Shown here: positions 16,957 to 52,562 of the stretch, piece after piece
Numbering within the stretch: position 1 is the stretch's first letter
Layout: every line of letters starts with the position of its first letter
Virus record (IMG/VR): IMGVR_UViG_3300029288_005873
Coordinates: 128,001 to 192,000 of that record
From: a virus
Lineage: Duplodnaviria > Caudoviricetes
Length of the DNA stretch: 64,000 nucleotides
Strand: one strand, 5' to 3'
Position numbers and translations under genes: made by a program
Notes under the pieces: generated by a model
Database searches by the model: none
Told to the model about the DNA's origin: nothing
What the model saw: the letters and a program-made list of their open reading frames with translations, nothing else

Positions 16957-17817
16957 TCAGGAAACTTCACTGAAGTGGATCGCTGCGATTGAAATATCGT
17001 CGTGGTGTTCCCACCCCTTGACTGCGGCATCCTTCAAGAAAGCATTAAGCCGCCTCTGTACAAATCGTCCACTGTGAAGTCTAAAATTCATAAGGCTTTC
17101 AAGTACTTCGCTCAATGGAACTACTTCGTTTGCTCCATTCTTGCTTCGCCTGTAGAACGACTTTACGCCATCAGACATTACGGCAGCAAGCTCAAGCTTT
17201 GCTACGCCTTGTTTAATTTGATGTATCTCGCCATATCCATTGTGTGGATCAAATCCGCGCTCTTGGTAATTTTCAAGTTTTCCATCAAGCCAACTCATAT
17301 CGCGCACAAGTTTATTTGCTTTGGTATCTACCCATACAGAATCATATTTATTTCGTCGCTCTTTGTCGAAACGATATGATAGGTAATCTGGATAACCATT
17401 CGTCAACTCGATGTCTAGGCACTTAGTGCTTCCATGTTCCCATTTCAGAAATAGAACGCCATCTCCAAATGCTGACAAACAAACATATTCTCCATCACAC
17501 ATAATGGAAAGTAGAGTGGCATCCAATACTTCTGGAGATAAACCAAGACCATTAGCTGAAGTTCTCGCGCTACACATGGTCATCATTCCGATTTCTTCTG
17601 GAGAGGATGTCTTCAGATTCCATCCAGTCTCAAGCATGGCGCGGAAAGATTGCCTTGCGGAAAGAACCATCAGCCTAGCTCCGATGTCTGAGTCTGGGCT
17701 AGATGAGCATCCATCCGATACCCAAGCCTTTCCCCATTCACCATCAACCTCCGCTTTTGCATAATCTTGGCATACTTCGTGACGTTTTCCTATAGCGAAT
17801 GCGCTGTCTGCGTTCAT
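16957..17817 (-). CDS. PP2C-family protein phosphatase (YegK/TerY-P type)
   Basis: GKRHEVCQDYA, VSDGCSSS, ATLL, FGDG, MSDG, HDDISI. Confidence 0.88.
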   Translation of the reverse strand: MNADSAFAIGKRHEVCQDYAKAEVDGEWGKAWVSDGCSSSPDSDIGARLMVLSARQSFRAMLETGWNLKTSSPEEIGMMTMCSARTSANGLGLSPEVLDATLLSIMCDGEYVCLSAFGDGVLFLKWEHGSTKCLDIELTNGYPDYLSYRFDKERRNKYDSVWVDTKANKLVRDMSWLDGKLENYQERGFDPHNGYGEIHQIKQGVAKLELAAVMSDGVKSFYRRSKNGANEVVPLSEVLESLMNFRLHSGRFVQRRLNAFLKDAAVKGWEHHDDISIAAIHFSEVS

Positions 17818-18185
17818 GGATTTAGCTCCATCTTTACCTGTTCGCCCATATTGTCTACCAGCATTTTCAACTGATCCATCTTCCAATTACCACTTAGATT
17901 AATGCGCACCTGTGCGTCTTCTAGCAAATTCTTAAGCATTCTTGGTAGTTTGTGAGCATCCATCCAAGCACACATGTTCGCTTTAATTAGGCTCTGTTCG
18001 CTTCCAGAACTTGCAAGAACCCATTCACCCCAACGTGGTAAGTAGACTCTTGCACACATGATAACCTCATATGTTCTATCAGCAGGTATTGTAGTTCCAC
18101 TGACTGCGGCAGCGCAAATACGACAAACAATGTCGAACAGGTTATCACATGTAAAAAATGGAACTGTCACATAATTTATATCCAT
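17814..18185 (-). CDS. Hypothetical protein
   Basis: ORF coupled to PP2C start (ATGA). Confidence 0.55.
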   Translation of the reverse strand: MDINYVTVPFFTCDNLFDIVCRICAAAVSGTTIPADRTYEVIMCARVYLPRWGEWVLASSGSEQSLIKANMCAWMDAHKLPRMLKNLLEDAQVRINLSGNWKMDQLKMLVDNMGEQVKMELNP

Positions 18186-26108: not shown

Positions 26109-26345
26109 TTAACTCCGTTTGTTTCTTTTTTTGCGAGTTTGCGGGGGCGGCGATTGGAGCAAGGTTACCTGCCGTATTTCAAATTTCCCAAGCACTATAA
26201 GCTGTAGAGATTTTGTGTCCGTAGGACACAGCATCCGACCAGTATGGATTGCCGACGTCTCCGATTCAAATGGTCCCATCCACCCACCTCGCCCATCTTC
26301 AATCCAGAAGCCTATAGGGGGAGCACTCGTGATTATGGGCTTCAT
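26109..26345 (-). CDS. Hypothetical protein
   Basis: ORF coupled to vWA stop. Confidence 0.55.
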   Translation of the reverse strand: MKPIITSAPPIGFWIEDGRGGWMGPFESETSAIHTGRMLCPTDTKSLQLIVLGKFEIRQVTLLQSPPPQTRKKRNKRS

Positions 26346-27100
26346 TAGATGTTTAGGGAAACTGGAGCAGAACCGCCGCCTGTTCCGAGCGACTGGCTCT
26401 GTGCGGAGATGGATTTGCTTACGAATTCCGCCAGCTTAGCAAGTGTCTTCGCATCGGTTTTCTCTACCTCAACAAACTGGGTTAGACCAGCACCGTTCTT
26501 GAACTTATCAAGATATGACGACACCTGAGGATCACCCTTAGTGCCCACACCAATCAGAACTGTAACCAAGCTCTCCAAAGACTCGGTCTTCAAGGCTGCT
26601 TTGAGCGCCTTACCAACATCCTTCTCAGTACCCTTGGATTGATTATCACATCCATCGGTCAGGAAAAAGCACACGGAGTTCACACCAAAGTCATTCTCTG
26701 ATAGCTTTTTGGCGTAGTCCGTTTGAGCAAGAATAGAATTCTCGGCAGCATCATATAGAGCTGTCATACCCCCAACTCTAAGAACACCGTTGTAATCTCC
26801 AATATTACAACTCTCCAGGAGCTTGTATCCATGGATTTCATCCAGACCATCAGCAAACGTCACAAGCCGAATCATCAGATTGTCAGCACGTGGCGACATC
26901 TTACAAGCCTGAACAATCTGCTGAATAGCCTTCTCCAGGTCATCTTTATACGTTGCCACCGAACCGCTGACGTCAACAACCAAATCAACAAGGGTGTATT
27001 CCGTCGCACCCAAGTCCTCTAGTTTCGCCGCCGAATATCCAAAGCTACCGGTTGGTAGCGCATGTTCCTCAAGATCATTCTTCAGTTTTGGCATTGCCAT
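26345..27100 (-). CDS. vWA-domain protein (TerY-like)
   Basis: MIDAS DVSGS, GGMTALYDA, FLTDG; AAGGAG RBS. Confidence 0.88.
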   Translation of the reverse strand: MAMPKLKNDLEEHALPTGSFGYSAAKLEDLGATEYTLVDLVVDVSGSVATYKDDLEKAIQQIVQACKMSPRADNLMIRLVTFADGLDEIHGYKLLESCNIGDYNGVLRVGGMTALYDAAENSILAQTDYAKKLSENDFGVNSVCFFLTDGCDNQSKGTEKDVGKALKAALKTESLESLVTVLIGVGTKGDPQVSSYLDKFKNGAGLTQFVEVEKTDAKTLAKLAEFVSKSISAQSQSLGTGGGSAPVSLNI

Positions 27101-27297
27101 TCTCCTTATTGAAATGAAGCACCATGAGTGAATCATCCATATACATTCCATCGATGTCCGGTATAAATCCAGCGGTTTTCAGCGCGATTTCAATAGCCTT
27201 CATCACACTGTCTGGTCCATCAATGATTACCCATCCAGCTTTTTTCTACTATAACAGATCCCCCGAATTTAGTGACAACACGTACTGTTATCATATT

Positions 27298-28113
27298 CTA
27301 AACTAGGAAATCTTTCGTTGTCGACAGCTGCATTCCGCGACTTGTCATCTCCTTGACGAAAGCATCCTGGAAATGCTCAAATCCAGTGACTGGACTGGTG
27401 GCATCCGTGAGCAGCACCATCTTTGCCACAAACTTATCGTCGCCGAACTCAGTAGCGATATCGCGAACAGTATTCGCAAGACAATGCGAACCAGCTTCAC
27501 CAGCGATAGCAAGGACGTCAGCTTCCATCAGCGTCTGAATTAGGCGCGTATTAACATGGGTCGATGGATCGTCGGGGTCTGGAACCTCAGCCTTGATTGC
27601 CGAATAATGCTCTGTGTAGATGTTAGAACCCTTAGACACAAAGTCCACAACGGCAAAATTCTTCCTCTTCCACTCACACAAGGCAGAAAAGAGTTCTGGA
27701 ACAACGGCATTTCCAGGACTACCAATTAGACAGTGGGGTGGCCAGATACATAGTGGATACTTGCCACTACTCTCCAGAGACTTGGTGTATACAATCATGC
27801 GTCTGGTTAAACTCGGCATCACGGGAGACCACCGACCGTTTTCAATTTCAGTACTAGTGATAATCGTAAAGGGCGCAGGATAATTACCTTTGGAATCTTT
27901 CCACATAACTGGATGTGCCACATCCACGAGATGATGACAATCCAAAGTAACATGGATATCATCAAGTTTGCTACCCAATCTCCGAATAAGAGCTGGTAGT
28001 CGAACATTCATATCCTCCCATGCTCCTTGTACAGGTAGTGCCCCTTTTGGATCGCAGAAATCGTGTTGTGGATCAATTACTAGCAAATGAACTTTTTTAA
28101 TGTTATTGCTCAT
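27298..28113 (-). CDS. pncA: Nicotinamidase/isochorismatase-family cysteine hydrolase
   Basis: IDPQHDF, GAL, TLDCH, WPPHC, KG, YSA, GEAGSHC (catalytic Cys). Confidence 0.85.
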   Translation of the reverse strand: MSNNIKKVHLLVIDPQHDFCDPKGALPVQGAWEDMNVRLPALIRRLGSKLDDIHVTLDCHHLVDVAHPVMWKDSKGNYPAPFTIITSTEIENGRWSPVMPSLTRRMIVYTKSLESSGKYPLCIWPPHCLIGSPGNAVVPELFSALCEWKRKNFAVVDFVSKGSNIYTEHYSAIKAEVPDPDDPSTHVNTRLIQTLMEADVLAIAGEAGSHCLANTVRDIATEFGDDKFVAKMVLLTDATSPVTGFEHFQDAFVKEMTSRGMQLSTTKDFLV

Positions 28114-29979: not shown

Positions 29980-30151
29980 AAGTTTTGATACATAGGTCCA
30001 TAGCAGCCTTTAAGGCAGCTGATTCACTTTTGTGCCAGCCATATGTGCCACATTCAGGCTTACTAATGCTTGTTGCCCAGCAAAGCCTATCACCTTTCTG
30101 AGGACCAAGATCACCAGTTCCAAGTGCCAAGAGAACCAATACGATTCTCAT
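29936..30151 (-). CDS. Small secreted Cys-rich protein
   Basis: Signal-like N-terminus, 6 Cys. Confidence 0.55.
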   Translation of the reverse strand: MRIVLVLLALGTGDLGPQKGDRLCWATSISKPECGTYGWHKSESAALKAAMDLCIKTCGHDCEKDYCETVE

Positions 30152-30621
30152 TTTTCTTCCTCCGGTTCACCATTCTTTTTTGCTATGTACCCTATACTGT
30201 CATCTAGCTCTTCGATCTGTTTGGCGATTGCTGGGGCTAACATTCTCTGCTTTACAAAGTTTCCAGTTGCCATTAGCCTATCCAGTTCTTTCTCAAGCTC
30301 CTTGCGCTCTCCGCGTAACACTGCCAGCCTGATTCTGTCTGGAAGTTTTCCAAACTCTACCATGTCAGAAACTGGTTTAACGTCTCGCCAATGAATATGA
30401 GGAAATTCACTGGCAAGTCTATCGCCATCTTCTCCCTTGGCAAGTAGGATAAGCAATCTATTTTCAGCCTTATCCCTCAACCAATATGCCCTTGCTTGTC
30501 TTTTTCCACCGCGTGCCTTGACTGTTTCGCCCCAGGTTTCACTTCCTGGAACATGTCGTGGTTCTTTATTCTCGTCAGCCATAGGTTCTCCTTCTCGAAA
30601 AGTCAACTGGCTTTGCGTCAA
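30148..30621 (-). CDS. Hypothetical protein
   Basis: AAGGAG before MADENK. Confidence 0.6.
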   Translation of the reverse strand: MTQSQLTFREGEPMADENKEPRHVPGSETWGETVKARGGKRQARAYWLRDKAENRLLILLAKGEDGDRLASEFPHIHWRDVKPVSDMVEFGKLPDRIRLAVLRGERKELEKELDRLMATGNFVKQRMLAPAIAKQIEELDDSIGYIAKKNGEPEEEK

Positions 30622-30651
30622 CTTATCAGCAAAGCCAGTTGACTTTTCTTA

Positions 30652-31638
30652 TTATTGCCCATAGTCCAGACGGAACTGGTCGAACGCATCCACTGCCGAC
30701 GAAAGGAGAGGCTCTTTCAGACAAAGTTCATCACATAGGAGGTACTTGCGATAGCCGATATCGTAAAGCCACGCCATCTCAAGAAAATCAGCACATGATG
30801 GCACTGGGCTGTGGACAACCGACAATAGAATGCGCGAACCAACAGAAGCCTCTGGATCTTTCCCTATAATCAACCTCAACGCTTCGGGAATTCTGTGAGG
30901 CTTGTCAATCTCCACATACAGGTCACCACGGGCAGCCATAAGAGATGTCCTAGGTGTTTTCTTGTACTCATCAGAAGCATATTGTAGACCGCGCCTATCC
31001 TCGATCTTCAGAATAACATCCGCATCCTTTCCAACCAAGGAACGGAACTCGTCAACATCACGTTGGTTCTGTACATATGACAAGAAAAACTTTGTGATTC
31101 CAGCCCTCTTTGATGCTTCGATCTTTGCCAGCTCAGCTTCGGAGAACTGGTTTCCCCCCACCTCTAGGCTTGGATGCCTAATGTGAAGAGATTCACCAGC
31201 CTTCACCATGAAGTCTGGACCTCCATCGAACACCAAACGATAACCATGGTCTACCACATCCTTCAACAGTGCCTGGTCTTCACCAGCTTTGAAGATAACG
31301 ATGGTGGGAGTCTGTACCTTGACGGGATGGTTAAGGATCAATTCCAGATGGTCTTTATATGGTCTGCTCTCAACAACCCGCAACTGTCTACCCTTGACAT
31401 CCACCCATAGAGGAACTCCACCAACATGACTGGCTTTCAGTAGTTCACCTGCCATTTCCCCAACATCCACCATGGCCGTATTTAGCCTAACACCAGAAAG
31501 TCGCTTGTCTAGAGCAAACTTGTCAAAGTGTGGAAAAGATGGCCACATGGTAACCATCAACTCCATCTTATCCGGTATTGGCAGACATTTCCTGTCCATA
31601 TCTTTTTTTCCGAAAAACCTATCAAGGAGACTTCCCAT
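30652..31638 (-). CDS. Pyruvate-kinase-like barrel protein (no C-terminal domain)
   Basis: VRLN, DVKGRQLR, LSYV, LKIE, MAARGDLYVE; AGGAGG RBS. Confidence 0.82.
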   Translation of the reverse strand: MGSLLDRFFGKKDMDRKCLPIPDKMELMVTMWPSFPHFDKFALDKRLSGVRLNTAMVDVGEMAGELLKASHVGGVPLWVDVKGRQLRVVESRPYKDHLELILNHPVKVQTPTIVIFKAGEDQALLKDVVDHGYRLVFDGGPDFMVKAGESLHIRHPSLEVGGNQFSEAELAKIEASKRAGITKFFLSYVQNQRDVDEFRSLVGKDADVILKIEDRRGLQYASDEYKKTPRTSLMAARGDLYVEIDKPHRIPEALRLIIGKDPEASVGSRILLSVVHSPVPSCADFLEMAWLYDIGYRKYLLCDELCLKEPLLSSAVDAFDQFRLDYGQ

Positions 31639-31647
31639 CGCTTCCTC

Positions 31648-32640
31648 CTAAAGCAGCGACTTGGTTTTCTTTCCCCCAGAACTCTTCATAACGGAGCGCC
31701 CCGACTTCAGGAGCTTGCGGTCTGGGTCGACCGCCTCGATCTTGTGGATCGTCTCCAGAGCCTTCAGGGCGACTTCGACCTTCTTGTCGCCGCCCTTGTC
31801 CTTGAGCTGCCTATCTTTCAGCTCATCACGGAAGTACTCGATTCGGTCGGTTTCCTTAGCTAGGATACCGAAGATGATATCCAGCACGCGCTCCTCATTC
31901 GGAAGCGTGACGATGTGCTCCTCATCGACGTACTGTAGCCACTCATTTACGATACCCTTGTCCGTGGAACTGATGCCATCAGTTCCCGTCGGACTGTAGG
32001 GCTTTCGCACAAGATACACAGCATATCGTCGCTTAAGCTCGTCGAACACGTCCTTGGTCTTGATCCTCGCCTCGATGTCCACCTTGGCATGAATCTTGGC
32101 ATCTTCCTGATTGATCGTCTCATAGAGAGACTCATCAGTGATGATGATACAAATAGGCTTGGAAGCCACCGGCATATCAACATTTCTGGCATAGTAGAGT
32201 GCCGCGACTTCAGGGCTCTCCTTGACCTGACCACCACCACCACCCTCGATCACCAGAGCCTCCAACTGAATCTTTAGGTCGGTGCTCTTGGAAAACTGCC
32301 GAACCTGTAGGGGGTACTTGTCAGAATACACATCCCCAAATGCGCAGAAAGAAATCTCCATGTCATCGCCGAGGTATTCCTTACCTTCGATCTCCAGGTA
32401 TGGAAGCTTCGAGAAGATGGCCGCTGGCCACTTCCCCATAGAACCCGTCACGTCGCACAGAATTGCGAGCGGCGATTTACTTTTCGTCTTGATTCTGTCT
32501 GGCGACATATCTGCCGCCTTCTTTCCAGAAGCCTTGGCATCTCCATAACTACGACCAACGTGAACGTCATACTTCTTGCGCGCCGCACCAAAGTCATGTC
32601 CCTTCCACACTCCAGGATCATAATCGCTTGTCTCTGACAT
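31648..32640 (-). CDS. vWA-domain protein
   Basis: CDVTGSMG, FGD, EGGGGGQ..ES, IITDE; AAGGAG RBS. Confidence 0.85.
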   Translation of the reverse strand: MSETSDYDPGVWKGHDFGAARKKYDVHVGRSYGDAKASGKKAADMSPDRIKTKSKSPLAILCDVTGSMGKWPAAIFSKLPYLEIEGKEYLGDDMEISFCAFGDVYSDKYPLQVRQFSKSTDLKIQLEALVIEGGGGGQVKESPEVAALYYARNVDMPVASKPICIIITDESLYETINQEDAKIHAKVDIEARIKTKDVFDELKRRYAVYLVRKPYSPTGTDGISSTDKGIVNEWLQYVDEEHIVTLPNEERVLDIIFGILAKETDRIEYFRDELKDRQLKDKGGDKKVEVALKALETIHKIEAVDPDRKLLKSGRSVMKSSGGKKTKSLL

Positions 32641-33403
32641 TGTTTATCTCCTTTGTTTGTGAAATCCAATATTCAATATTGAACCTTTGATGTTCAAATG
32701 AAAGATCCCTATATTTGAAATCAATTTTATGGTACATTGATGGAACTTCCAGGACAAATGGGCGCACCAAATCTATAAACTTTTTGGCATTTGTTGTATT
32801 TATATGTATAAAAAACAACCCCTTCGAAGGCTTAGTCTGTGCCAAAATTCCCCACCGAAAACGCAGCCAAGTACAAATTATCTCATTCTCTGCTAATGAG
32901 AATGAATGTGTACTTAATCGAATGTTCCTACCACCAATACTACGTTCTCGGCGTTCCCTATAAAAATCTGGTTTGAAACGCACCTTGTTATAGTGGAGTT
33001 CCAAATTCCCATCATCCATATACCATAGCGCCAATCCCATTGGTGTAAGTCTCTCTAATAGTTCTAATGTTACTCGCTTATGTGGATTATATATCTCTTT
33101 TCTAATCTCTGTTAGAAAAGAATGTGTATTTGTTCTGATTCTTATCTGTGGATACAACTTACCAAGTTTCCTATTATTATGAACTATATCCCTAACAGAA
33201 AATATAATACCTGGAATCTGACTAAGTATAATACCCTTTATAGCAACATAATCACGTACGGCAGGAGTATGAGCAGCCTGTATTCGCGCATTGATTCCAT
33301 GGATTTGGAGATTAAAATCCCCAAGCACCATACCAATAATGGCGGAGTAAAGTTCTTGGTGACTCAGGTTCTCATATATGCTTACCAATTTAGTGCTCCT
33401 CAT
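32618..33403 (-). CDS. Double-motif LAGLIDADG homing endonuclease
   Basis: AIIGMVLGD and GLALWYMDDG motifs, LSTHSFS; AT-rich. Confidence 0.88.
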   Translation of the reverse strand: MRSTKLVSIYENLSHQELYSAIIGMVLGDFNLQIHGINARIQAAHTPAVRDYVAIKGIILSQIPGIIFSVRDIVHNNRKLGKLYPQIRIRTNTHSFLTEIRKEIYNPHKRVTLELLERLTPMGLALWYMDDGNLELHYNKVRFKPDFYRERRERSIGGRNIRLSTHSFSLAENEIICTWLRFRWGILAQTKPSKGLFFIHINTTNAKKFIDLVRPFVLEVPSMYHKIDFKYRDLSFEHQRFNIEYWISQTKEINNVRDKRL

Positions 33404-34131
33404 TCTCCTTTAATTTTTGCGTGACCATTTGCCAAGGCAACATCCAAAGCATATGCCTGATCTTCACTAGGAACATAAAGTAGCGGTCCTATTGTCTCAA
33501 CATCCTGCGGAATCCGCATGGCATTTTTCTGATCTACCAGATAGACCAAACGATTGTCAACTGACACCTCCACATCAACCTCACAGCTTCCTATCCATGG
33601 ATGCCATGCTTTGCCGCTTGTTCCAACAAATCCTGGCTCAATCCTGGTCCTTTTTGGAAATTCAGAATTGAGCAACAGGTCAAGTCTTCTGACGGCACAC
33701 CAGGCATATACAACACGTGGACTCGGAAGTTTGCTGCGCCCTTCCTTGGTCAATTTGCCATTATCAGTCAAGCCGATGGAGGCTTTTTTACAGGCGTAGT
33801 CAAGACTGGAACTTGCGATCCATTTTACTTTTTCCCGTGGGTCTACTGTATCCGCATAGGCAAAGACACAATCATCTATATCCCCGCCAACGAACAAGCG
33901 ACCACCCGATAAGGATACTACTTCTGTAAAGTATGTTCCTTGAACATGACCATTCTTTACTTCTGCCAGACACCATCTGTCAACTTTTTTTGACACAATT
34001 TGATGATGATCGAAAGCTTCGGATGCCATCCGAACCAGACCAACAAGCCTATCCTTTTCGTTCATCATTTGTGCGCTCCAGTTCGGCAATCTCGTCTTGT
34101 AGTTTGCGTATGTAGCTGCGGTCCAATTCAC
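33400..34131 (-). CDS. Hypothetical protein
   Basis: Long ORF; likely start near 34065. Confidence 0.6.
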   Translation of the reverse strand: MNWTAATYANYKTRLPNWSAQMMNEKDRLVGLVRMASEAFDHHQIVSKKVDRWCLAEVKNGHVQGTYFTEVVSLSGGRLFVGGDIDDCVFAYADTVDPREKVKWIASSSLDYACKKASIGLTDNGKLTKEGRSKLPSPRVVYAWCAVRRLDLLLNSEFPKRTRIEPGFVGTSGKAWHPWIGSCEVDVEVSVDNRLVYLVDQKNAMRIPQDVETIGPLLYVPSEDQAYALDVALANGHAKIKGE

Positions 34132-34534
34132 GAACTGTATCGGAATCTCTAGCGGTTCGCCTTAATTTATTAATAAGCATGTCGTGGCTAGGACCTCCTG
34201 ATCTTTCCCTTAACGGCAGAAGGAACCACCACATACATCCTGCCGATGGAACAGATGTATATCCCCAATATGTATTACCATCTTCCTTTGGCACAGCTGG
34301 AACAAGCCAGCCTATTTGGTCGCTTTCACCAAAAGCATCAGTATACCTGCCATCTTCTCCCACGTTTCCAATCTTGCCTTGGTCTTTACACGCACAATCG
34401 GCGCAAAGCAGATCGATAGAATCGGCAATTGTTTGGTATTGCCGCCAAAGTTTGACGCCATGAGCAAGGCATTTGGAGCAACGGTAGCCCGTAGGTGGAT
34501 CTTTTGATCCATAATCTATCTTACCAATTTTCAT
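34049..34534 (-). CDS. Zn-binding hypothetical protein (GVKLWRQY...YWGYTSVP)
   Basis: CSKC/CADC; coupled to kinase stop. Confidence 0.7.
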   Translation of the reverse strand: MKIGKIDYGSKDPPTGYRCSKCLAHGVKLWRQYQTIADSIDLLCADCACKDQGKIGNVGEDGRYTDAFGESDQIGWLVPAVPKEDGNTYWGYTSVPSAGCMWWFLLPLRERSGGPSHDMLINKLRRTARDSDTVRELDRSYIRKLQDEIAELERTNDERKG

Positions 34535-35535
34535 CGCAACCCCTCTATTTTCTTGCCAAAAGAGCTGGTTCGACCAAAAGCCTTCTTCCTTACTGTTCTA
34601 AGCTCCTCGACCAGATCCTCATTATCCCATCGCGGTCTATCCAAAATATCGTGAGCTACCAGTCTACGGATGAACTTACAGACATGATCTGGTAGGTCTT
34701 CTGGAACCCGCTTGCGACCAAGATCTCCTCCTAGCGAAGCTATCATTGTCATACCGAGAGAATAGAAGTCTGACTCAGGCAATAGGGTCATACCAGCCAC
34801 CTGCTCAGGTGGAGCATAGTGAGGGGTATATCCCTTTGCCATAGAGTCTGCAGATGGTCGGATAAGGGAAAGACCATAGTCTACCAAAACAACCATATGC
34901 TTCTCTGGCTGGACAATGATATTTTGAGGTTTCACATCACCATGGACGACTCCATGAAAATGGAGATATCGCAAAGCATTCAGGACACGTTCCGTAATCC
35001 AGCAAACAGTCTCGGCATCAAGTGTCCCATTTTTCTCGACTATCTGATCCAAGGTGGGTCCAGGAATGAAACTCATAACCAAGGCAAGGCTTCCGTCATC
35101 GAGTTTGATTATCTCTCTGACGGACGGAATAGCATAATGACGGAGATCCCAGATAGCTTTCGCTTCCTCGATCAGGATCATCTCATCCTGAGGAGACACA
35201 TGCGAAGCATGCTTGATACAGACAGGAGTACCAAGCATGACATGTTCGCCGCGATAGGTCTTTCCAAATCCTCCTTCAGCAATTTCCTCAAGGATGCGAT
35301 AGCTCCCGAGGACTTTACCTACCCCCTTACCACGTTCGCGATCATATTTCTTGCGAGCCTTATCATCTACAAGTGTTTGGTGGGCTTCGCCAAGAGATTT
35401 GGCTACACGGTCATCACCAATTTTATCAGGGTGATACACTAGCATGAGAGCCTTATGCGCAGCGTCAATGACCTCTCGCCTAGCGCGCGGGGATACTTCC
35501 AATACCTCATAGAAATCAACACCTTTGCTTGCCAT
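34531..35535 (-). CDS. DnaJ-domain / Ser-Thr kinase fusion
   Basis: DFYEVL...YHPDK J-domain; EGGFGKTY, HGDVKPQNI, VDYG, YAPPE, SDFYSLG; GGAGG RBS. Confidence 0.92.
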   Translation of the reverse strand: MASKGVDFYEVLEVSPRARREVIDAAHKALMLVYHPDKIGDDRVAKSLGEAHQTLVDDKARKKYDRERGKGVGKVLGSYRILEEIAEGGFGKTYRGEHVMLGTPVCIKHASHVSPQDEMILIEEAKAIWDLRHYAIPSVREIIKLDDGSLALVMSFIPGPTLDQIVEKNGTLDAETVCWITERVLNALRYLHFHGVVHGDVKPQNIIVQPEKHMVVLVDYGLSLIRPSADSMAKGYTPHYAPPEQVAGMTLLPESDFYSLGMTMIASLGGDLGRKRVPEDLPDHVCKFIRRLVAHDILDRPRWDNEDLVEELRTVRKKAFGRTSSFGKKIEGLR

Positions 35536-35545
35536 CGGATTCCTC

Positions 35546-35866
35546 CTAGCCGATTTCTTTTGCCACTAGCAGCAATTGAAAAAGCGCCTTAACCCTACGC
35601 TTGTCGAAACTTGTAGAACCGTAATCCTCCGAGTTTGCATGTTTCCGAAACGCAGCGGCGGTTTCAGCATCAACAGCATGTCCGAGAAGATACCTTATCA
35701 TCCAGGAACAAAATCCGAAATTATAAAACGTCATATTAGATCCAGCAAAACGCCGAACATTTGACAATGTAATCCTAGCTTTATTCCCGAACAACTTTTT
35801 GAATCTGTCTCTGGAGAAATGGCAAGCTTGTATATTGACAAGCGCATTAAGAGTGAGGTATTTCAT
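35546..35866 (-). CDS. Hypothetical protein
   Basis: ORF in gene run. Confidence 0.55.
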   Translation of the reverse strand: MKYLTLNALVNIQACHFSRDRFKKLFGNKARITLSNVRRFAGSNMTFYNFGFCSWMIRYLLGHAVDAETAAAFRKHANSEDYGSTSFDKRRVKALFQLLLVAKEIG

Positions 35867-35876
35867 TATTTTTTTC

Positions 35877-36275
35877 TCATAGCCACTTCAAGGCTAAAGC
35901 ATTTATGATAATATGAAAAGTATTATCCACAATTATCATTATCCACATGGTAAGCCACACTTGTCTATCTGGTGACATTCCAGTGAACGAACACGACTCC
36001 CATGTCTTCCGTTCACTTGGGGGAGACAGAAGCCAATTCTTCGCCCATATGGCTCGTTGTGGCAAGTCCCAATGGTCTATCACAAAATGTGATCCAATGA
36101 TCACCAGCATAGCAAGCAAAGAAGGTGCCAGAAAAATAAATGGCACAGCATAGGAAAGAACATGAGCGAGACAAGGCAGAATTCTTTCCTTCTTATTGAC
36201 AGCCATGAAGTCGGACTGAAGAAAGAAATCACCGACCAGATGGGCCACTATTTGATCTCCCGTTACGAAGCTCAT
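35877..36275 (-). CDS. DUF3307-like membrane protein
   Basis: HLVGDFFLQ, HVLSY, HFVID, DNTFH. Confidence 0.8.
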   Translation of the reverse strand: MSFVTGDQIVAHLVGDFFLQSDFMAVNKKERILPCLAHVLSYAVPFIFLAPSLLAMLVIIGSHFVIDHWDLPQRAIWAKNWLLSPPSERKTWESCSFTGMSPDRQVWLTMWIMIIVDNTFHIIINALALKWL

Positions 36276-37326: not shown

Positions 37327-37782
37327 CTATCTCCCCTCGAGCATCTCCTCGAGTTCGTCAATTCTGTCACGCACCGCCTCGGATTCGACGGCAACCTTTC
37401 TCATCTGTTCTGTGCTAGCAGCCATGCCTGCTAGAAGTGTCTCCAGCTCGCGCAGGCGGGTGCCCTCATCCTTCTCCATTTCAAGGTGCTGTTTTCTGAG
37501 CTCCATATACATAGTTGCGATCATCTCCTTGTCCCCTTGCCTGAGGTGGTCGAGTCGAAGACGTAGATTTCTTCTCCTGCCTTGGAATAAAGTCCTCAAT
37601 GGACTATCCGCAGGTAGCGTTCCAAGGTCTGCTCTGATCCGTGTATACACCTCACCATCAAGCGACTCTGGTGAACACGCTTCGCGAATCGGCAGATTTT
37701 TTACAGCTGCGAAAGCAGACTGGATGGATCCATAGATCATTGACCGCTCTACAGCATTCAACTCCCTTATTCCAGTATTCAT
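37327..37782 (-). CDS. Coiled-coil protein
   Basis: ORF, ATGA coupling. Confidence 0.65.
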   Translation of the reverse strand: MNTGIRELNAVERSMIYGSIQSAFAAVKNLPIREACSPESLDGEVYTRIRADLGTLPADSPLRTLFQGRRRNLRLRLDHLRQGDKEMIATMYMELRKQHLEMEKDEGTRLRELETLLAGMAASTEQMRKVAVESEAVRDRIDELEEMLEGR

Positions 37783-38579
37783 GTGCTTTCCTTTGCCACG
37801 ATATTCGATATGTCTGACACCAGCTTTTTGATGTCTGACGCATATGGACCTGCGCTATTTACGCACCCAAGTTCCAAAACATAAAGATTCCCTGCCGACT
37901 CACAGATATCAAGCACGAAAATTCTGTGTGGACTAAAGACCTTAGCCATACGTTCACCAAAGTCCAGGACCTCGCGCGGAACGTTTGCGTCCTCAGCCAA
38001 TACGCCTCTAACTTTGTACTGACTAGCAGTGGATACATGTCCATCCACCATAAACAATCGCCATTCCTTGGATATACCCCAAGGCTCTCCCACGATTATC
38101 TTTGTCGTAGATAGTTGCTCATCTCCAAGATCTGTCTGTATGAGTCCAGCATTCCACCGTTGAAGTTGACCGAAAGACCACACTCCTCCGGTAAACTCCT
38201 TGGCATCTTTAACTGGACGGACAAAAAACATCCTATCTGGGTCATGGGGTTCCCATACAAACTCCGACAAAGTTGTAACTTTCGAGCCGTGATTGATCCA
38301 GTTTTCTCCGTAGGCTGTTCCCCACGTCGTAGTCATGAACATTTCGGGATCAAAGAAAGCACAAGGTGACCATTTGCCAGACTTCAAAACCAGGTCAACC
38401 ATACGCACAGATCCATAGAAAACCGTTGGCATATCCGTCGGAATGTCTGGAAGTTCTTTGGAAAAAGGAATCCTCTGAAAAAGAATACATGAAATTCCTA
38501 AGGATTCACATGCGCTGCGGATTGCCTCATGGGCACCATCGACCTTTAGTTTATCCTGAACAGCCCAGCGTATGTTCAT
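37779..38579 (-). CDS. ATP-grasp protein (R2K/DUF4343-like) 1
   Basis: YGS, FVRP...KEFTG, EWRLFMVDG, FVLDI, VLELG..NSAG. Confidence 0.82.
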   Translation of the reverse strand: MNIRWAVQDKLKVDGAHEAIRSACESLGISCILFQRIPFSKELPDIPTDMPTVFYGSVRMVDLVLKSGKWSPCAFFDPEMFMTTTWGTAYGENWINHGSKVTTLSEFVWEPHDPDRMFFVRPVKDAKEFTGGVWSFGQLQRWNAGLIQTDLGDEQLSTTKIIVGEPWGISKEWRLFMVDGHVSTASQYKVRGVLAEDANVPREVLDFGERMAKVFSPHRIFVLDICESAGNLYVLELGCVNSAGPYASDIKKLVSDISNIVAKEST

Positions 38580-51241: not shown

Positions 51242-51660
51242 TATTCTCCCTCATATATGTAACACAAACCACTACATTCTGGACACTGACCAGAGGGCAT
51301 AGGTTCTCCTGGAGATACGCGCTCATACAGATTTTTGATCGGATCGCAATCAGCGGTTTCACCCTCCCATTGACAACTTCCACATCGACTGAGTCCGTCA
51401 TCATATGGTCCAGGATCCTTGCCAAAATTCACGAATTCGCTGGCGATCTCATCAAGAGATACTCCCCTGGAAATCAAATAGTCGAGCTGGGCGGCAACAC
51501 CTTGCGCTATGATCTCATCAGCCTCTTTGATGGATTTATTCCTAACCTCAGCTTCTTTCTCCGTTATTACCCAATCCGATGGTTGATGCTCATCAGGATC
51601 AAACTTCTTCTTTAGGAGAGCAGCAAGTAATTTGTCCCTTGTCCAGATTTTAGGCATCAC
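51241..51660 (-). CDS. Zn-ribbon protein
   Basis: CGSCQW...ERVSPGEPMPSGQCPEC. Confidence 0.7.
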   Translation of the reverse strand: MMPKIWTRDKLLAALLKKKFDPDEHQPSDWVITEKEAEVRNKSIKEADEIIAQGVAAQLDYLISRGVSLDEIASEFVNFGKDPGPYDDGLSRCGSCQWEGETADCDPIKNLYERVSPGEPMPSGQCPECSGLCYIYEGE

Positions 51661-52562
51661 TGACTCCAGGCGCCAGTTAGGGCGCGGTAGAAATCTCTAG
51701 CCATTGACTTTGGAAGTCCAGATACTTGACCATCGCCAAGTTCGACAATGACCCATTGTCCAGTCCGCGTTCGTGCTAAGTCGGCTGCGAAAAACCGGCT
51801 TTTTATTGCGCGAAAGATCTCTGAAAACTCACCAAGCGGAAGCTCGATTCCAGGTGGATAGTCTCCTTCTTCCCAGTAAGGACATGTAAAAAAGGGTTTC
51901 CCATCTAGGACGAAGACGCGAAATTCCAATGACATAGGCATACCGCTTGCCTGATGGATTCCCACCGGCTCAAGATCCAAAAACTCCCTGAAGACAAGTC
52001 CTCCTTGGATATCACCTTGAAGTTCCAAGAACTTTGCCACAACACGGCGTACGGATTCGCTATCCGCAGAATCTGGAATAAAGCAAGCCTCATTCCAATA
52101 ATGCTTTTGCGACTTCACGTAATCCTTTAGTATGATTGGTGCTCCCTTAAACACAGACAATGCCGTCATAATGTTATCGTGGTCATGTTCCCTAGGCATC
52201 CAAATTGTTTTTGGAGTCCGCTCTGCCATCAGAGGCCAACTCTCAGGAAGATGATGGCAGTGGATATATTGGTCTGGAGAGTTTATGAGTACAAGTCCTC
52301 GCTTCTCCAAAGCGCTATATAGCGAAGTATATTCCGTTGCCTTAAGCATCCATCCGCGGTATACTCCTATTCTTGCCACATGAGTTCTTTCAACTATCCT
52401 TACAGCGCGATCTACTCTGTTATCATCCACCAATGCCTCGAAATCCATAATAGATCGTGGCAAGCATGCCTCAAGAGCAGCTGAAGATTCACACCCCCAG
52501 TCACAGTCTACAGTATCAGGATCGTCGGAATCAAGACATAGAAGTATTTCTGGTCGTTTCAT
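51657..52562 (-). CDS. ATP-grasp protein (R2K-like) 2
   Basis: YRGWML, LINSP, KDYVKSQKHYW.EACFI, EFRVF, FFAAD, IVELGDGQVSG. Confidence 0.85.
   Translation of the reverse strand: MKRPEILLCLDSDDPDTVDCDWGCESSAALEACLPRSIMDFEALVDDNRVDRAVRIVERTHVARIGVYRGWMLKATEYTSLYSALEKRGLVLINSPDQYIHCHHLPESWPLMAERTPKTIWMPREHDHDNIMTALSVFKGAPIILKDYVKSQKHYWNEACFIPDSADSESVRRVVAKFLELQGDIQGGLVFREFLDLEPVGIHQASGMPMSLEFRVFVLDGKPFFTCPYWEEGDYPPGIELPLGEFSEIFRAIKSRFFAADLARTRTGQWVIVELGDGQVSGLPKSMARDFYRALTGAWSQ

What the first reader, a model, noticed from the sequence alone, without database searches (positions are those of the whole stretch)
30652..35535. Second phosphorylation module: DnaJ-kinase fusion, vWA and pyruvate-kinase-like enzyme
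Seen: a J-domain (intact HPD) fused to a complete Hanks kinase, followed downstream (past two ORFs and a LAGLIDADG gene) by a vWA gene 9 nt from a pyruvate-kinase-like gene. Established: J-domains recruit DnaK, and vWA proteins are common kinase partners in bacterial conflict systems. Inference: a chaperone-sensing signalling system in which a PEP-dependent enzyme supplies ATP or acts as effector. I know of no characterised system with this composition.
Basis: partly seen in the sequence, partly recalled or inferred. Interest (0 to 1): 0.7.

Follow-up and report, generated by a model that had tools for sequence, protein, structure and literature searches.

The report
Conserved kinase–vWA–mini-pyruvate-kinase gene cassette
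Three genes of this giant phage (a chaperone-hooked protein kinase, a metal-dependent adaptor protein and a stripped-down pyruvate kinase) form one conserved, undescribed cassette shared with tiny symbiotic archaea and bacteria, and its relatives sit among genes that make NAD and adenine nucleotides.

Summary
On the minus strand lie a J-domain (HPD intact) plus Hanks kinase (K, 34531-35535), a vWA/MIDAS protein (V, 31648-32640) and, 9 nt on, a pyruvate-kinase A+B-domain protein without the C domain (P, 30652-31638). The window is part of a 442-kb phage. In 66 non-redundant loci fetched through V, 55 carry K-V-P colinear and 3 more with K inverted. No other neighbour family occurs in more than 11 loci. 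All 16 full P-centred viral loci have K and V. The two ORFs and the LAGLIDADG gene between K and V are a local insertion. The cassette also lies in true cellular chromosomes of DPANN archaea and CPR bacteria, next to housekeeping genes. A diverged paralogue without a J domain is embedded in NAD salvage operons (7 of 7 loci). A third form has a PurA-like enzyme in place of P. I read K-V as a regulatory pair controlling a nucleotide-charging enzyme, serving ATP/NAD upkeep, not as a classic conflict system. The mechanism is inferred; the complex predictor was unavailable. No description was found in the papers searched.

The parts
34531..35535 (-). K: J-domain (res 7-65, HPD 35-37) fused to a non-RD (HGD) Hanks-type Ser/Thr kinase (res 79-~300), 334 aa
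   Evidence: Pfam DnaJ and Pkinase; catalytic residues conserved in 54-58 of 58 homologues; orthologue directly upstream of V in 58 of 66 non-redundant loci with all three genes, 62 with K
34049..34534 (-). 161-aa Cys-rich ORF, part of a lineage-specific insertion between K and V
   Evidence: ORF list; only a DUF7573 match far below its Pfam cut-off (16.7 against 30.2 bits), no PHROG hit; no homologue in any of the 72 related loci
33400..34131 (-). 243-aa ORF of unknown function, part of the same insertion (its listed start overlaps the previous ORF by 83 nt, so the true start is probably internal)
32618..33403 (-). free-standing LAGLIDADG homing endonuclease, 261 aa; its 3' end overlaps the V start by 23 nt
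   Evidence: Pfam LAGLIDADG_2 E 3.9e-23, phrog_11023; absent between K and V in the related loci
31648..32640 (-). V: vWA/MIDAS protein, 330 aa: conserved N-terminal motif, vWA fold about 55-295, disordered basic C-tail 301-330 with SG(K/R)SV and K(S/P)L(L/I) motifs
   Evidence: phrog_2971; fold; invariant D63, T65, G66, S67, D169, E170; tail motifs; the hub present in every variant of the cassette
30652..31638 (-). P: mini pyruvate kinase (A-domain TIM barrel plus small B domain, no C domain), 328 aa, 9 nt after V
   Evidence: Pfam PK; fold; K211-I-E213 and R237-G-D239 align to the catalytic KIE and ARGD of solved pyruvate kinases; motifs invariant in 31 homologues
27298..28113 (-). context only: isochorismatase/nicotinamidase-like gene 2.5 kb downstream of P; not shown to belong to the cassette
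   Evidence: Pfam Isochorismatase E 6.2e-4, below cut-off; weak colinear match (E 0.004) to the PncA-like gene of a type-2 NAD operon

Best explanation
K, V and P are the three subunits or steps of one conserved cassette. SHOWN: the genes are colinear and tightly spaced in megaphages, DPANN archaea and CPR bacteria. K has all the residues of an active Hanks kinase. V is a vWA protein with a MIDAS site. P is a pyruvate-kinase catalytic core that keeps the PEP/Mg2+ catalytic residues but lacks the allosteric C domain. V is the invariant hub: K-V occurs without P, and V-P occurs without K. INFERRED: P transfers phosphate from PEP to a nucleoside diphosphate, giving ATP or GTP independently of respiration and of NAD-dependent glycolysis. 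K and V replace the missing allosteric domain as a phospho-switch. K phosphorylates V (conserved Ser-rich tail) or P, and the MIDAS metal of V clamps an acidic or phosphorylated segment of its partner. In type-1 cassettes such as this one, the J domain also brings in host DnaK. The paralogous cassettes lie inside NAD salvage operons or carry a PurA-like enzyme. The module's job is therefore most likely upkeep of the adenine-nucleotide and NAD pool. For the phage it is an auxiliary metabolic module that keeps ATP-costly salvage and replication running in an energy-poor or depleted host. The two ORFs and the LAGLIDADG gene between K and V are a later insertion.
For: Linkage. Of 66 non-redundant loci fetched through V, 55 are K-V-P colinear, 3 have K inverted, 4 are K-V only and 4 are V-P only. 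Dropped before the count: own locus L001, duplicates L008, L010, L019, L020, and Bixzunavirus L003 and L004. The three families occur in 64-68 loci and the next neighbour family in 11. All 16 full P-centred viral loci have K and V, and 22 of 24 strong K-centred loci have V and P. The median V-to-P gap is about 12 nt, with eight 4-nt overlaps. In LR745208.1 the three genes are directly adjacent.

Enzymology. P motifs RLN, D-x-KG-x-QLR, KIE and ARGDL are invariant and align to the catalytic KIE and ARGD of solved pyruvate kinases; the fold agrees. Kinase residues. MIDAS.

Cellular, housekeeping contexts. Sequence conservation of 50-60% across domains.

Functional context. Type-2 K'-V'-(X)-P' lies inside NAD salvage operons (NAPRTase, nicotinamidase-like, NadE, NUDIX, NMNAT-like, NAD kinase, PnuC, NrtR, PRPP synthetase) in 7 of 7 loci examined. 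K-V-PurA-like occurs in Bixzunavirus, L076 and L132; mixed forms are L069, L072 and L075. This phage itself encodes NAPRTase, NAD synthase, ADP-ribosylglycohydrolase and a PurA-like gene. Phosphatase genes abut P in L054 (PP2C) and L016 (DSPc). The role of vWA as a Mg-dependent peptide-binding co-chaperone or adaptor comes from passages of PMC7159879 and PMC9503650.
Against: No interaction, phosphorylation or enzyme activity was tested, and the complex predictor was unavailable. Immediate neighbours of type-1 cassettes are heterogeneous and mostly not NAD or purine genes. In this phage the NAD genes are 45-135 kb away from the cassette. The NAD link therefore rests mainly on the paralogous type-2 cassette. 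P scores far below NCBIfam's pyruvate-kinase equivalog cut-off (36 against 306 bits), so its substrate may differ from ADP and PEP. Two genomes with the cassette also have a canonical pyruvate kinase, so P is not simply the glycolytic enzyme. No K-V, V-P or K-P fusion proteins were found (weak evidence; top 150 rows). The V tail motif does not track the state of the HPD motif. The cassette is rare: V was found in 7 of 200 and 1 of 200 sampled genomes of the two phyla.
Confidence: 0.45

Rival explanations
1. Chaperone-type 'activase'. V is a MIDAS adaptor that docks a target enzyme (P, or the PurA-like enzyme) and hands it to an ATP-driven remodeller. That remodeller is Hsp70, recruited by the J domain of K, or an AAA+ ATPase in variants. 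The purpose is assembly, metal loading or release of an inhibited state, as in MoxR-vWA pairs. The kinase domain only gates this step.
For: vWA proteins are co-chaperones of MoxR AAA+ ATPases (passages of PMC7159879; PMC7824862). In L075 a 651-aa AAA ATPase stands where K normally is, before V'-P'. The J domain with HPD is kept in 44 of 58 K proteins. All 5 cellular carrier genomes tested have Hsp70.
Against: HPD is lost in 14 of 58, and type-2 kinases have no J domain at all, yet V and P stay conserved. The kinase catalytic residues are nearly invariant, so phosphorylation, not remodelling, is the constant. The AAA swap was seen once only. The phage has no Hsp70 of its own.
Confidence: 0.2
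2. Conflict module. It would be a kinase-vWA sensor akin to TerY-P, with the PK-like protein as effector or energy source. Cells would use it as defence, or phages as counter-defence, for example to restore ATP or NAD after depletion by host immunity.
For: Kinase-vWA(-PP2C) TerY-P modules act in defence (passages of PMC10542128). The distribution is patchy and apparently mobile, across phages and two domains. ADP-ribosylglycohydrolase is the commonest neighbour family (11 loci). Jumbo phages carry NAD synthesis genes in a conflict setting (passages of PMC7824862).
Against: V and P hit no PADLOC model and K hits only generic kinase models. Sequences evolve slowly. Cellular copies lie among ribosomal-protein, tRNA-synthetase and NAD salvage genes, not in defence islands. 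No nuclease, pore or other toxic effector is linked.
Confidence: 0.15
3. P is just an acquired glycolytic pyruvate kinase (an ordinary auxiliary metabolic gene). K and V are an unrelated host-takeover kinase pair that merely happen to be co-inherited with it.
For: Sources name P homologues 'pyruvate kinase'. K-V exists without P in Bixzunavirus, L076 and L132.
Against: 16 of 16 full P-centred viral loci carry K and V, several V stops overlap the P start, and the flanks are otherwise unrelated. P lacks the C domain and coexists with a canonical pyruvate kinase in 2 of 5 genomes.
Confidence: 0.08

Closest known systems
TerY-P triad (TerY-like vWA + PP2C phosphatase + Ser/Thr kinase with zinc ribbon or OB fold)
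   Same: A Hanks-type kinase encoded next to a vWA/MIDAS protein as a three-gene unit, predicted to be a metal- and phosphorylation-dependent switch (passages of PMC10542128).
   Different: The third gene here is a pyruvate-kinase-like enzyme, not PP2C. The kinase carries an N-terminal J domain, not a C-terminal zinc ribbon or OB fold. V hits no PADLOC model at E 0.01. The context is housekeeping or salvage genes rather than restriction systems.
vWA-STPK-FHA-PP2C operon of Deinococcus radiodurans (DRA0331-0334)
   Same: An operon that joins a vWA protein and a Ser/Thr kinase (abstract of bioRxiv 10.64898/2026.01.23.701218).
   Different: That operon has FHA and PP2C partners and is tied to the DNA-damage response. 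It has no metabolic enzyme and no J domain.
MoxR AAA+ / vWA chaperone-co-chaperone pairs and ternary systems
   Same: vWA acts as a Mg-dependent adaptor that couples an ATP-driven chaperone to a third component (passages of PMC7159879). Here the J domain (Hsp70) or, in L075, an AAA ATPase fills the chaperone slot.
   Different: There is no MoxR gene. A protein kinase is fused to the co-chaperone element. The third component is a conserved enzyme, not a variable effector.
Canonical pyruvate kinase (PF00224 + PF02887)
   Same: The A-domain TIM barrel and B-domain fold, and the catalytic Lys, Glu and Asp.
   Different: No C-terminal allosteric or tetramerisation domain and a shortened B domain. 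The score is far below the equivalog cut-off. It is always encoded after a vWA gene.
Jumbo-phage NAD+ synthesis genes (NAPRTase plus NMN adenylyltransferases)
   Same: Large phages carry NAD salvage genes (passages of PMC7824862). This phage has NAPRTase and NadE. The type-2 cassette sits inside such operons in DPANN archaea.
   Different: The text searches in those two papers found no 'pyruvate kinase' or 'protein kinase', and their vWA and DnaJ passages concern other systems.
GAK/auxilin-2 of animals (kinase + J domain) - recalled, not checked in any call
   Same: One polypeptide with a Ser/Thr kinase and a J domain that recruits Hsp70.
   Different: A eukaryotic clathrin-uncoating factor with the J domain at the C terminus. 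No vWA or pyruvate-kinase partner, and no evidence of common descent.

Membership tests
Pyruvate kinase | (beta/alpha)8 A domain with inserted B domain | tested here: met
   Model pLDDT 91. Every listed PDB match is a pyruvate kinase, TMq 0.66-0.76, Foldseek probability 1.0. Pfam PK 37.7 bits, cut-off 30.
Pyruvate kinase | Catalytic Lys and Mg-binding Glu and Asp (KIE ... ARGDL), with the PEP-site Thr | tested here: met
   K211, E213 and D239 align to the KIE and ARGD of solved pyruvate kinases and are invariant in 31 sequences. The Thr position is Ser (P-S-C-A-D). Equivalences for the N-terminal RLN and D-x-KG motifs are by eye and from recall.
Pyruvate kinase | C-terminal alpha/beta domain (PK_C) and full-length equivalog score | tested here: not met
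   The protein ends after the A domain (328 aa against 460-530 aa for the solved chains). TIGR01064 gives 36.3 bits against a cut-off of 306.4.
Pyruvate kinase | PEP + ADP -> pyruvate + ATP activity | not testable with these tools
   No assay possible; the substrate is inferred.
Hanks-type Ser/Thr protein kinase | Pkinase domain with the VAIK Lys, alphaC Glu, HxD...N catalytic loop, DFG and APE | tested here: met
   Pfam E 2.6e-31. Among 58 homologues: K 56, E 58, HGD 56, N 58, D(F/Y)G 55. It is a non-RD kinase (HGD).
J-domain protein (Hsp70 co-chaperone) | J-domain fold with an HPD tripeptide | tested here: met
   Pfam DnaJ 46.9 bits, cut-off 27.8. HPD is present in the window protein and in 44 of 58 homologues and is substituted in 14. 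Stimulation of DnaK was not tested.
vWA / MIDAS domain | Rossmann-like vWA fold | tested here: met
   Foldseek probability 1.0 to NorD vWA, integrin I and I-like domains and the RGLG1 vWA, TMq 0.35-0.46. There is no Pfam vWA hit.
vWA / MIDAS domain | MIDAS motif D-x-S-x-S plus a downstream Thr and Asp | tested here: inconclusive
   The variant D63-V-T65-G-S67 and D169-E170 are invariant. The first Ser is replaced by Thr. Metal binding was not tested.
TerY-P triad | TerY-like vWA, PP2C phosphatase and a kinase with a C-terminal zinc ribbon or OB fold, in one operon | tested here: not met
   No PP2C in the cassette (one locus of about 36 scanned has PP2C beside P). V has no PADLOC hit. The kinase has an N-terminal J domain instead.
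MoxR-vWA chaperone system | A MoxR-class AAA+ ATPase gene adjacent to the vWA gene | tested here: not met
   None in the window and none among the conserved neighbour families. One variant (L075) has a classical AAA (PF00004) gene upstream of V'.
LAGLIDADG homing endonuclease | LAGLIDADG_2 domain, free-standing ORF, sporadic presence | tested here: met
   Pfam E 3.9e-23. It is absent from the K-V spacer of the related loci.

The most novel reading that the evidence does not exclude
The kinase-vWA pair is a previously unrecognised, portable regulator of purine-nucleotide charging enzymes: a mini pyruvate kinase, a PurA-like synthetase, or both. It is shared by ultra-small symbionts of both prokaryotic domains and by their giant phages. 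In phages it would work with phage NAD salvage genes to rebuild ATP and NAD from PEP when the host's pools collapse, including after NAD- or ATP-depleting immunity. This would also mean that many 'pyruvate kinase' calls in DPANN and CPR metabolic reconstructions are this regulated salvage enzyme, not a glycolytic step.
Probability: 0.25. Interest if true: 0.85.

Novelty: new variant of a known kind. Interest (0 to 1): 0.72.

Why it matters
It defines a compact three-gene module that is very well conserved: 324 representatives of 50%-identity clusters for the hub protein at E 1e-30 or better. The module links protein phosphorylation, a MIDAS adaptor, an Hsp70 hook and a minimal pyruvate kinase. 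It occurs in organisms and phages whose energy and cofactor economy is poorly understood.

It gives a concrete, testable hypothesis for how megaphages, DPANN archaea and CPR bacteria keep ATP, GTP and NAD supplied. It flags a likely mis-annotation: an 'orphan' pyruvate kinase in genomes that lack glycolysis, as noted for Pacearchaeales in passages of bioRxiv 10.64898/2026.05.13.725050. Whether those calls are this protein was not tested.

It also offers a tractable model. The K-V-PurA form is present in the Bixzunavirus mycobacteriophages that grow on Mycobacterium smegmatis.

Tried and rejected
1. Single-protein scans of viral contigs with P and with V found no usable loci. Alignments were needed.

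2. A nucleotide search of phage records with the region found nothing.

3. Complex prediction with K, V and P (V as partner) was not available, so no statement on binding can be made.

4. Search for fused forms: no longer proteins related to V at E 1e-10 (the tool calls this weak evidence), and no fusion among the best 150 representatives.

5. Idea that the basic C-tail of V, K(S/P)L(L/I), is a DnaK site tied to the J domain. The motif is present whether or not HPD is intact, so there is no support.

6. Idea that P is the genome's only pyruvate kinase. A canonical pyruvate kinase is also present in 2 of 5 carrier genomes.

7. Promoter and terminator scan of 30000-36000: counts are like those of shuffles.

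8. BLAST and home-made HMMs of NAD genes against type-1 loci found few hits: NadE in 2 loci, NAD kinase in 1, NrtR/Nudix in 4, ARH in 11. The NAD link is therefore not general for type 1.

9. Protein X, found between V' and P' in some loci, has no PDB sequence match. There is only a weak Atlas lead to glutamine-amidotransferase-like families.

10. Chance adjacency was rejected.

11. Earlier notes of this scan: nothing for this place.

Full report
**What is in the window**

The window is bases 128001-192000 of a 441,904-bp virus record rated complete. Almost all genes are on the minus strand. They are dominated by nucleotide, RNA-repair and cofactor functions: radical SAM, Ham1, NT5C, deoxyribosyltransferase, two RNA ligases, a CCA-adding enzyme, two R2K ATP-grasp proteins, PP2C, Metallophos and ClpP.

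At the finding's coordinates lie the following genes.

- **K** (34531-35535, 334 aa) has a DnaJ domain with HPD at 35-37 and a Pkinase domain.
- A 161-aa ORF and a 243-aa ORF pass no Pfam cut-off and hit no PHROG family.
- A LAGLIDADG_2 homing endonuclease lies at 32618-33403.
- **V** (31648-32640, 330 aa) has no Pfam hit and matches phrog_2971, of unknown function.
- **P** (30652-31638, 328 aa) starts 9 nt after V. It gives a partial Pfam match to the PK barrel, just above the gathering score.

Folding with alignments gave confident models.

- V has pLDDT 82. It has a vWA fold, with Foldseek probability 1.0 to NorD, integrin I-like and RGLG1 vWA domains. It also has a disordered tail at 301-330.
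- P has pLDDT 91. Every listed PDB match is a pyruvate kinase, with TMq up to 0.76 but covering only about half of the target. P therefore has the A and B domains and lacks the C domain.

**Are the three genes linked?**

tblastn against phage records gave the first answer. In the 485-kb uncultured phage LR745208.1 the homologues (45%, 41% and 47% identity) are directly adjacent, with nothing inserted. In about 200 Bixzunavirus mycobacteriophage records both a kinase and a V homologue are found. In the two records I inspected they are neighbouring genes, followed by a small ORF and a PurA-like gene.

Protein searches showed two large families, each 50-60% identical to the window's proteins.

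- P: 1228 proteins at E 0.001 or better among 4005 candidates.
- V: 702 proteins among 2527 candidates.

Many contig lengths recur in both lists, and one pair has consecutive locus tags.

With the V alignment I fetched 22 viral and 47 genome-collection loci. I then compared all window ORFs with all ORFs of the 72 loci L002-L073. V is present in 72, partly by construction. K is in 68 and P in 66. No other real window gene is found in more than 4 loci; the higher counts (36, 18, 14, 9) belong to antisense shadow ORFs of K, V and P.

Seven loci were removed before the next count: my own locus, four duplicates and the two Bixzunavirus loci. The remaining 66 loci break down as follows.

| Arrangement | Loci | Comment |
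|---|---|---|
| K-V-P colinear | 55 | |
| K inverted, V-P | 3 | |
| K-V only | 4 | three at a contig end or with a truncated V |
| V-P only | 4 | two at contig ends |

An all-against-all clustering of 1664 neighbourhood ORFs gave 68, 64 and 64 loci for the three families. The next family reached only 11 loci.

The reciprocal tests hold.

- All 16 full-length P-centred viral loci carry K and V.
- Of 24 strong K-centred loci, 22 carry V and P. The other two have a truncated V.

Spacing is tight. The median V-to-P gap is about 12 nt, and eight loci have a 4-nt stop/start overlap.

The window is therefore an exception: its K-V spacer has been invaded by 1.9 kb with three ORFs, one of them a homing endonuclease. 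Other loci show insertions of their own.

- L012 and L014 have extra ORFs between K and V.
- L036 has a tandem second V.
- L055 carries a gene of family X between V and P.
- In Basquiat the V homologue is 593 aa, with a weak Hint match. This suggests an intein.

**Who carries it?**

The carriers are not only phages. In the closed chromosome of Archaeon GW2011_AR15 the cassette lies between Spt5/NusG, NusA-KH, ribosomal proteins S12 and S7 and a Na/H exchanger on one side. On the other side are PhoU, diphthamide synthase and ribonucleotide reductase.

In a 1.24-Mb Patescibacteria contig it lies between EngB, Maf and RuvA, FemAB and IleRS.

The cassette is nevertheless rare. V was found in 7 of 200 other sampled genomes of AR15's phylum and in 1 of 200 of the Patescibacteria genome's phylum.

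A V tree of 66 rows was built with a quick search, rooted on long-branch outgroups. It shows:

- a DPANN-labelled clade of 24 rows (SH-aLRT 95);
- a mostly viral clade of 14 rows that holds the window (SH-aLRT 92);
- a second viral clade of 5 rows with LR745208 (SH-aLRT 100);
- CPR-labelled rows as a basal grade.

MAG labels may be wrong for some rows. Spirochaetales, Gammaproteobacteria and Methanosarcinales labels sit inside the DPANN and viral clades.

The hub family has 1521, 1102 and 324 representatives at E 1e-3, 1e-10 and 1e-30 in the 1.84-billion-protein library. Nearly all are 300-350 aa, so V is a stand-alone protein.

**What the proteins can do**

K keeps the Hanks catalytic set. 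Among 58 homologues: Lys 56, Glu 58, HGD 56, Asn 58, D(F/Y)G 55. It is a non-RD kinase.

Its HPD is intact in 44 of 58. It is substituted in 14, mostly CPR- and DPANN-labelled copies.

V has invariant D63-x-T65-G66-S67 and D169-E170, a MIDAS-like site. It also has a conserved N-terminal acidic and aromatic motif, and a tail with SG(K/R)SV and K(S/P)L(L/I) motifs.

In P the profile alignment to solved pyruvate kinases places K211-I-E213 on the catalytic KIE. It places R237-G-D239 on ARGD, and P-S-C-A-D on P-T-R-A-E. RLN and D-x-KG-x-QLR are invariant in the N-terminal half; their equivalence to the pyruvate kinase phosphate and cation-site motifs is my reading by eye and from recall.

P scores far below the pyruvate kinase equivalog cut-off. 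It coexists with a canonical pyruvate kinase in 2 of 5 carrier genomes. All 5 have Hsp70; the phage has none.

**Variants that point to function**

AR15 has a second, diverged cassette. Sampling its phylum gave more of these. This 'type 2' has three or four genes:

- K', 256-299 aa, a kinase domain only, with no J domain;
- V';
- sometimes a 290-aa protein X;
- P'.

It keeps the MIDAS and pyruvate kinase catalytic motifs.

In 7 of 7 such loci (L074, L126-L131; K' is missing in L129) the cassette is embedded in an NAD salvage operon. The genes recognised by Pfam are:

- NAPRTase;
- isochorismatase/nicotinamidase-like;
- NAD synthase;
- NUDIX;
- NMN-adenylyltransferase-like cytidylyltransferase;
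- PnuC and a NadR-like gene;
- inosine-uridine nucleoside hydrolase;
- ADP-ribosylglycohydrolase;
- NAD kinase;
- NrtR;
- PRPP synthetase.

A 'type 3' has a PurA-like adenylosuccinate synthetase where P would be:

- Bixzunavirus, as K-V-x-PurA;
- L076, as K-V-PurA;
- L132, as uridine kinase-K-V-x-PurA.

Mixed forms exist:

- PurA-V-P in L069;
- V-like-PurA-K-V-P in L072;
- AAA ATPase-V'-P'-PurA in L075.

Around type-1 cassettes the immediate neighbours are heterogeneous. Recurrent items are:

- a PhoU-domain protein in 8 DPANN loci;
- ADP-ribosylglycohydrolase a few kb away in 11 loci, duplicates included;
- a PP2C (L054) or a dual-specificity phosphatase (L016) right after P;
- NAD kinase (L052);
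- NadE (L005, L062).

The window's own phage encodes NAPRTase, NAD synthase, ADP-ribosylglycohydrolase and a PurA-like gene elsewhere in its genome. It also has an isochorismatase-like gene 2.5 kb from P.

**Interpretation**

V is the constant. It pairs on one side with a kinase (rarely an AAA ATPase) and on the other with a nucleotide-handling enzyme: mini-PK, PurA-like, or both.

The sequences evolve slowly. The cellular copies sit among housekeeping or salvage genes. V and P match no defence model. I therefore prefer a metabolic-regulatory reading over a conflict reading.

- P regenerates NTP from PEP.
- K and V form the switch that replaces the lost allosteric domain.
- The J domain of type-1 kinases adds Hsp70 recruitment.
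- The module serves ATP, GTP and NAD upkeep.

The steps from 'conserved cassette with competent active sites' to 'what phosphorylates what' are inference. A chaperone-activase reading, in which vWA is an adaptor to Hsp70 or AAA, is the strongest rival and overlaps with mine. A counter-defence role for the phage copy, restoring ATP or NAD after depletion, is not excluded.

**Literature**

Seven full-text searches found no description of this cassette. I read passages of six papers and preprints and the abstract of a seventh.

- PMC7159879, PMC9503650, PMC7824862 and PMC10542128 describe MoxR-vWA, TerY-P, jumbo-phage NAD synthesis and J-domain proteins. None links a vWA gene to a pyruvate-kinase-like gene in the passages searched.
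- In PMC12619734 the DnaJ passages say nothing of a kinase or a vWA gene.
- For bioRxiv 10.64898/2026.01.23.701218 I read the abstract and outline.
- bioRxiv 10.64898/2026.05.13.725050 (passages) reports 'pyruvate kinase' in Pacearchaeales genomes that lack the rest of glycolysis. This might be the same protein. I did not test that.

Supplementary files were not consulted.

**Limits**

- ORFs were called mechanically (longest ORF, first start), so gaps and lengths are approximate.
- Many viral loci are the same contigs.
- The taxon labels of MAG contigs are as deposited.
- The tree is a quick search.
- No binding, activity or expression data were obtained.

Noticed in passing
window 32618-34534: The K-V spacer holds a 1.9-kb insertion: a Cys-rich 161-aa ORF, a 243-aa ORF and a LAGLIDADG homing endonuclease. 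The endonuclease's end overlaps the V start by 23 nt. None of the three has a homologue in the 72 related loci.
   Followed up: partly
L003 4779-6560 (Mycobacterium phage Basquiat gene 259) against L004 4779-5798 (ArcherS7 gene 263): The V homologue is 593 aa in some Bixzunavirus phages and 339 aa in others. The long form matches in two pieces and has a weak Hint-module hit, so it probably carries an intein.
   Followed up: partly
L074, L126-L131 (DPANN genomes): A J-domain-less paralogous cassette K'-V'-(X)-P' is embedded in NAD salvage operons: NAPRTase, nicotinamidase-like, NadE, NUDIX, NMNAT-like, NAD kinase, and in single loci PnuC, NrtR or PRPP synthetase.
   Followed up: yes
L126 7228-8106, L130 5238-6113, L131 7428-8318, L055 6374-7237, L042 2266-3135: Protein family X is about 290 aa, with invariant N-C, GGR..TDW and GEV.HF.SH motifs, and lies between V and P in some cassettes. 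It has no Pfam or PDB sequence match. There is only a weak Atlas lead to glutamine-amidotransferase-like families.
   Followed up: partly
L075 3744-9278 (565-kb contig labelled Falkowbacteria): The gene order is AAA ATPase (651 aa), V', P', PurA-like synthetase. The same contig also holds a type-1 cassette and an Hsp70 gene interrupted by in-frame stops. The contig may be a megaphage binned into a MAG.
   Followed up: partly
L076 3969-7497, L132 4013-9153, L003/L004: A third cassette form, K-V-PurA-like without P, occurs in two CPR genomes and in the Bixzunavirus phages.
   Followed up: partly
window 16957-17886 and 26345-27151: A PP2C phosphatase gene and a second, unrelated small vWA gene (phrog_7371; VWA_2 below cut-off) lie 14 kb and 4 kb downstream of P on the same strand. 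Neither matches a PADLOC model.
   Followed up: no
L027, L037, L038, L039, L040, L055, L059, L125: A PhoU-domain protein of about 315 aa (in L027 with a MazE/AbrB-like N-terminus) is encoded right beside type-1 cassettes in 8 DPANN loci, often divergently. It is a candidate local regulator.
   Followed up: no
L036 8405-10351; L024 8823-9795: L036 has two tandem V genes between K and P. In L024 the J domain and the kinase are separate ORFs and V is split, which suggests frameshifts or decay.
   Followed up: no
window 37779-38579 and 51657-52562; L006 14466-15224; L013 11967-12746: R2K-clade ATP-grasp genes recur within a few kb of the cassette in this phage and in two other viral loci.
   Followed up: no
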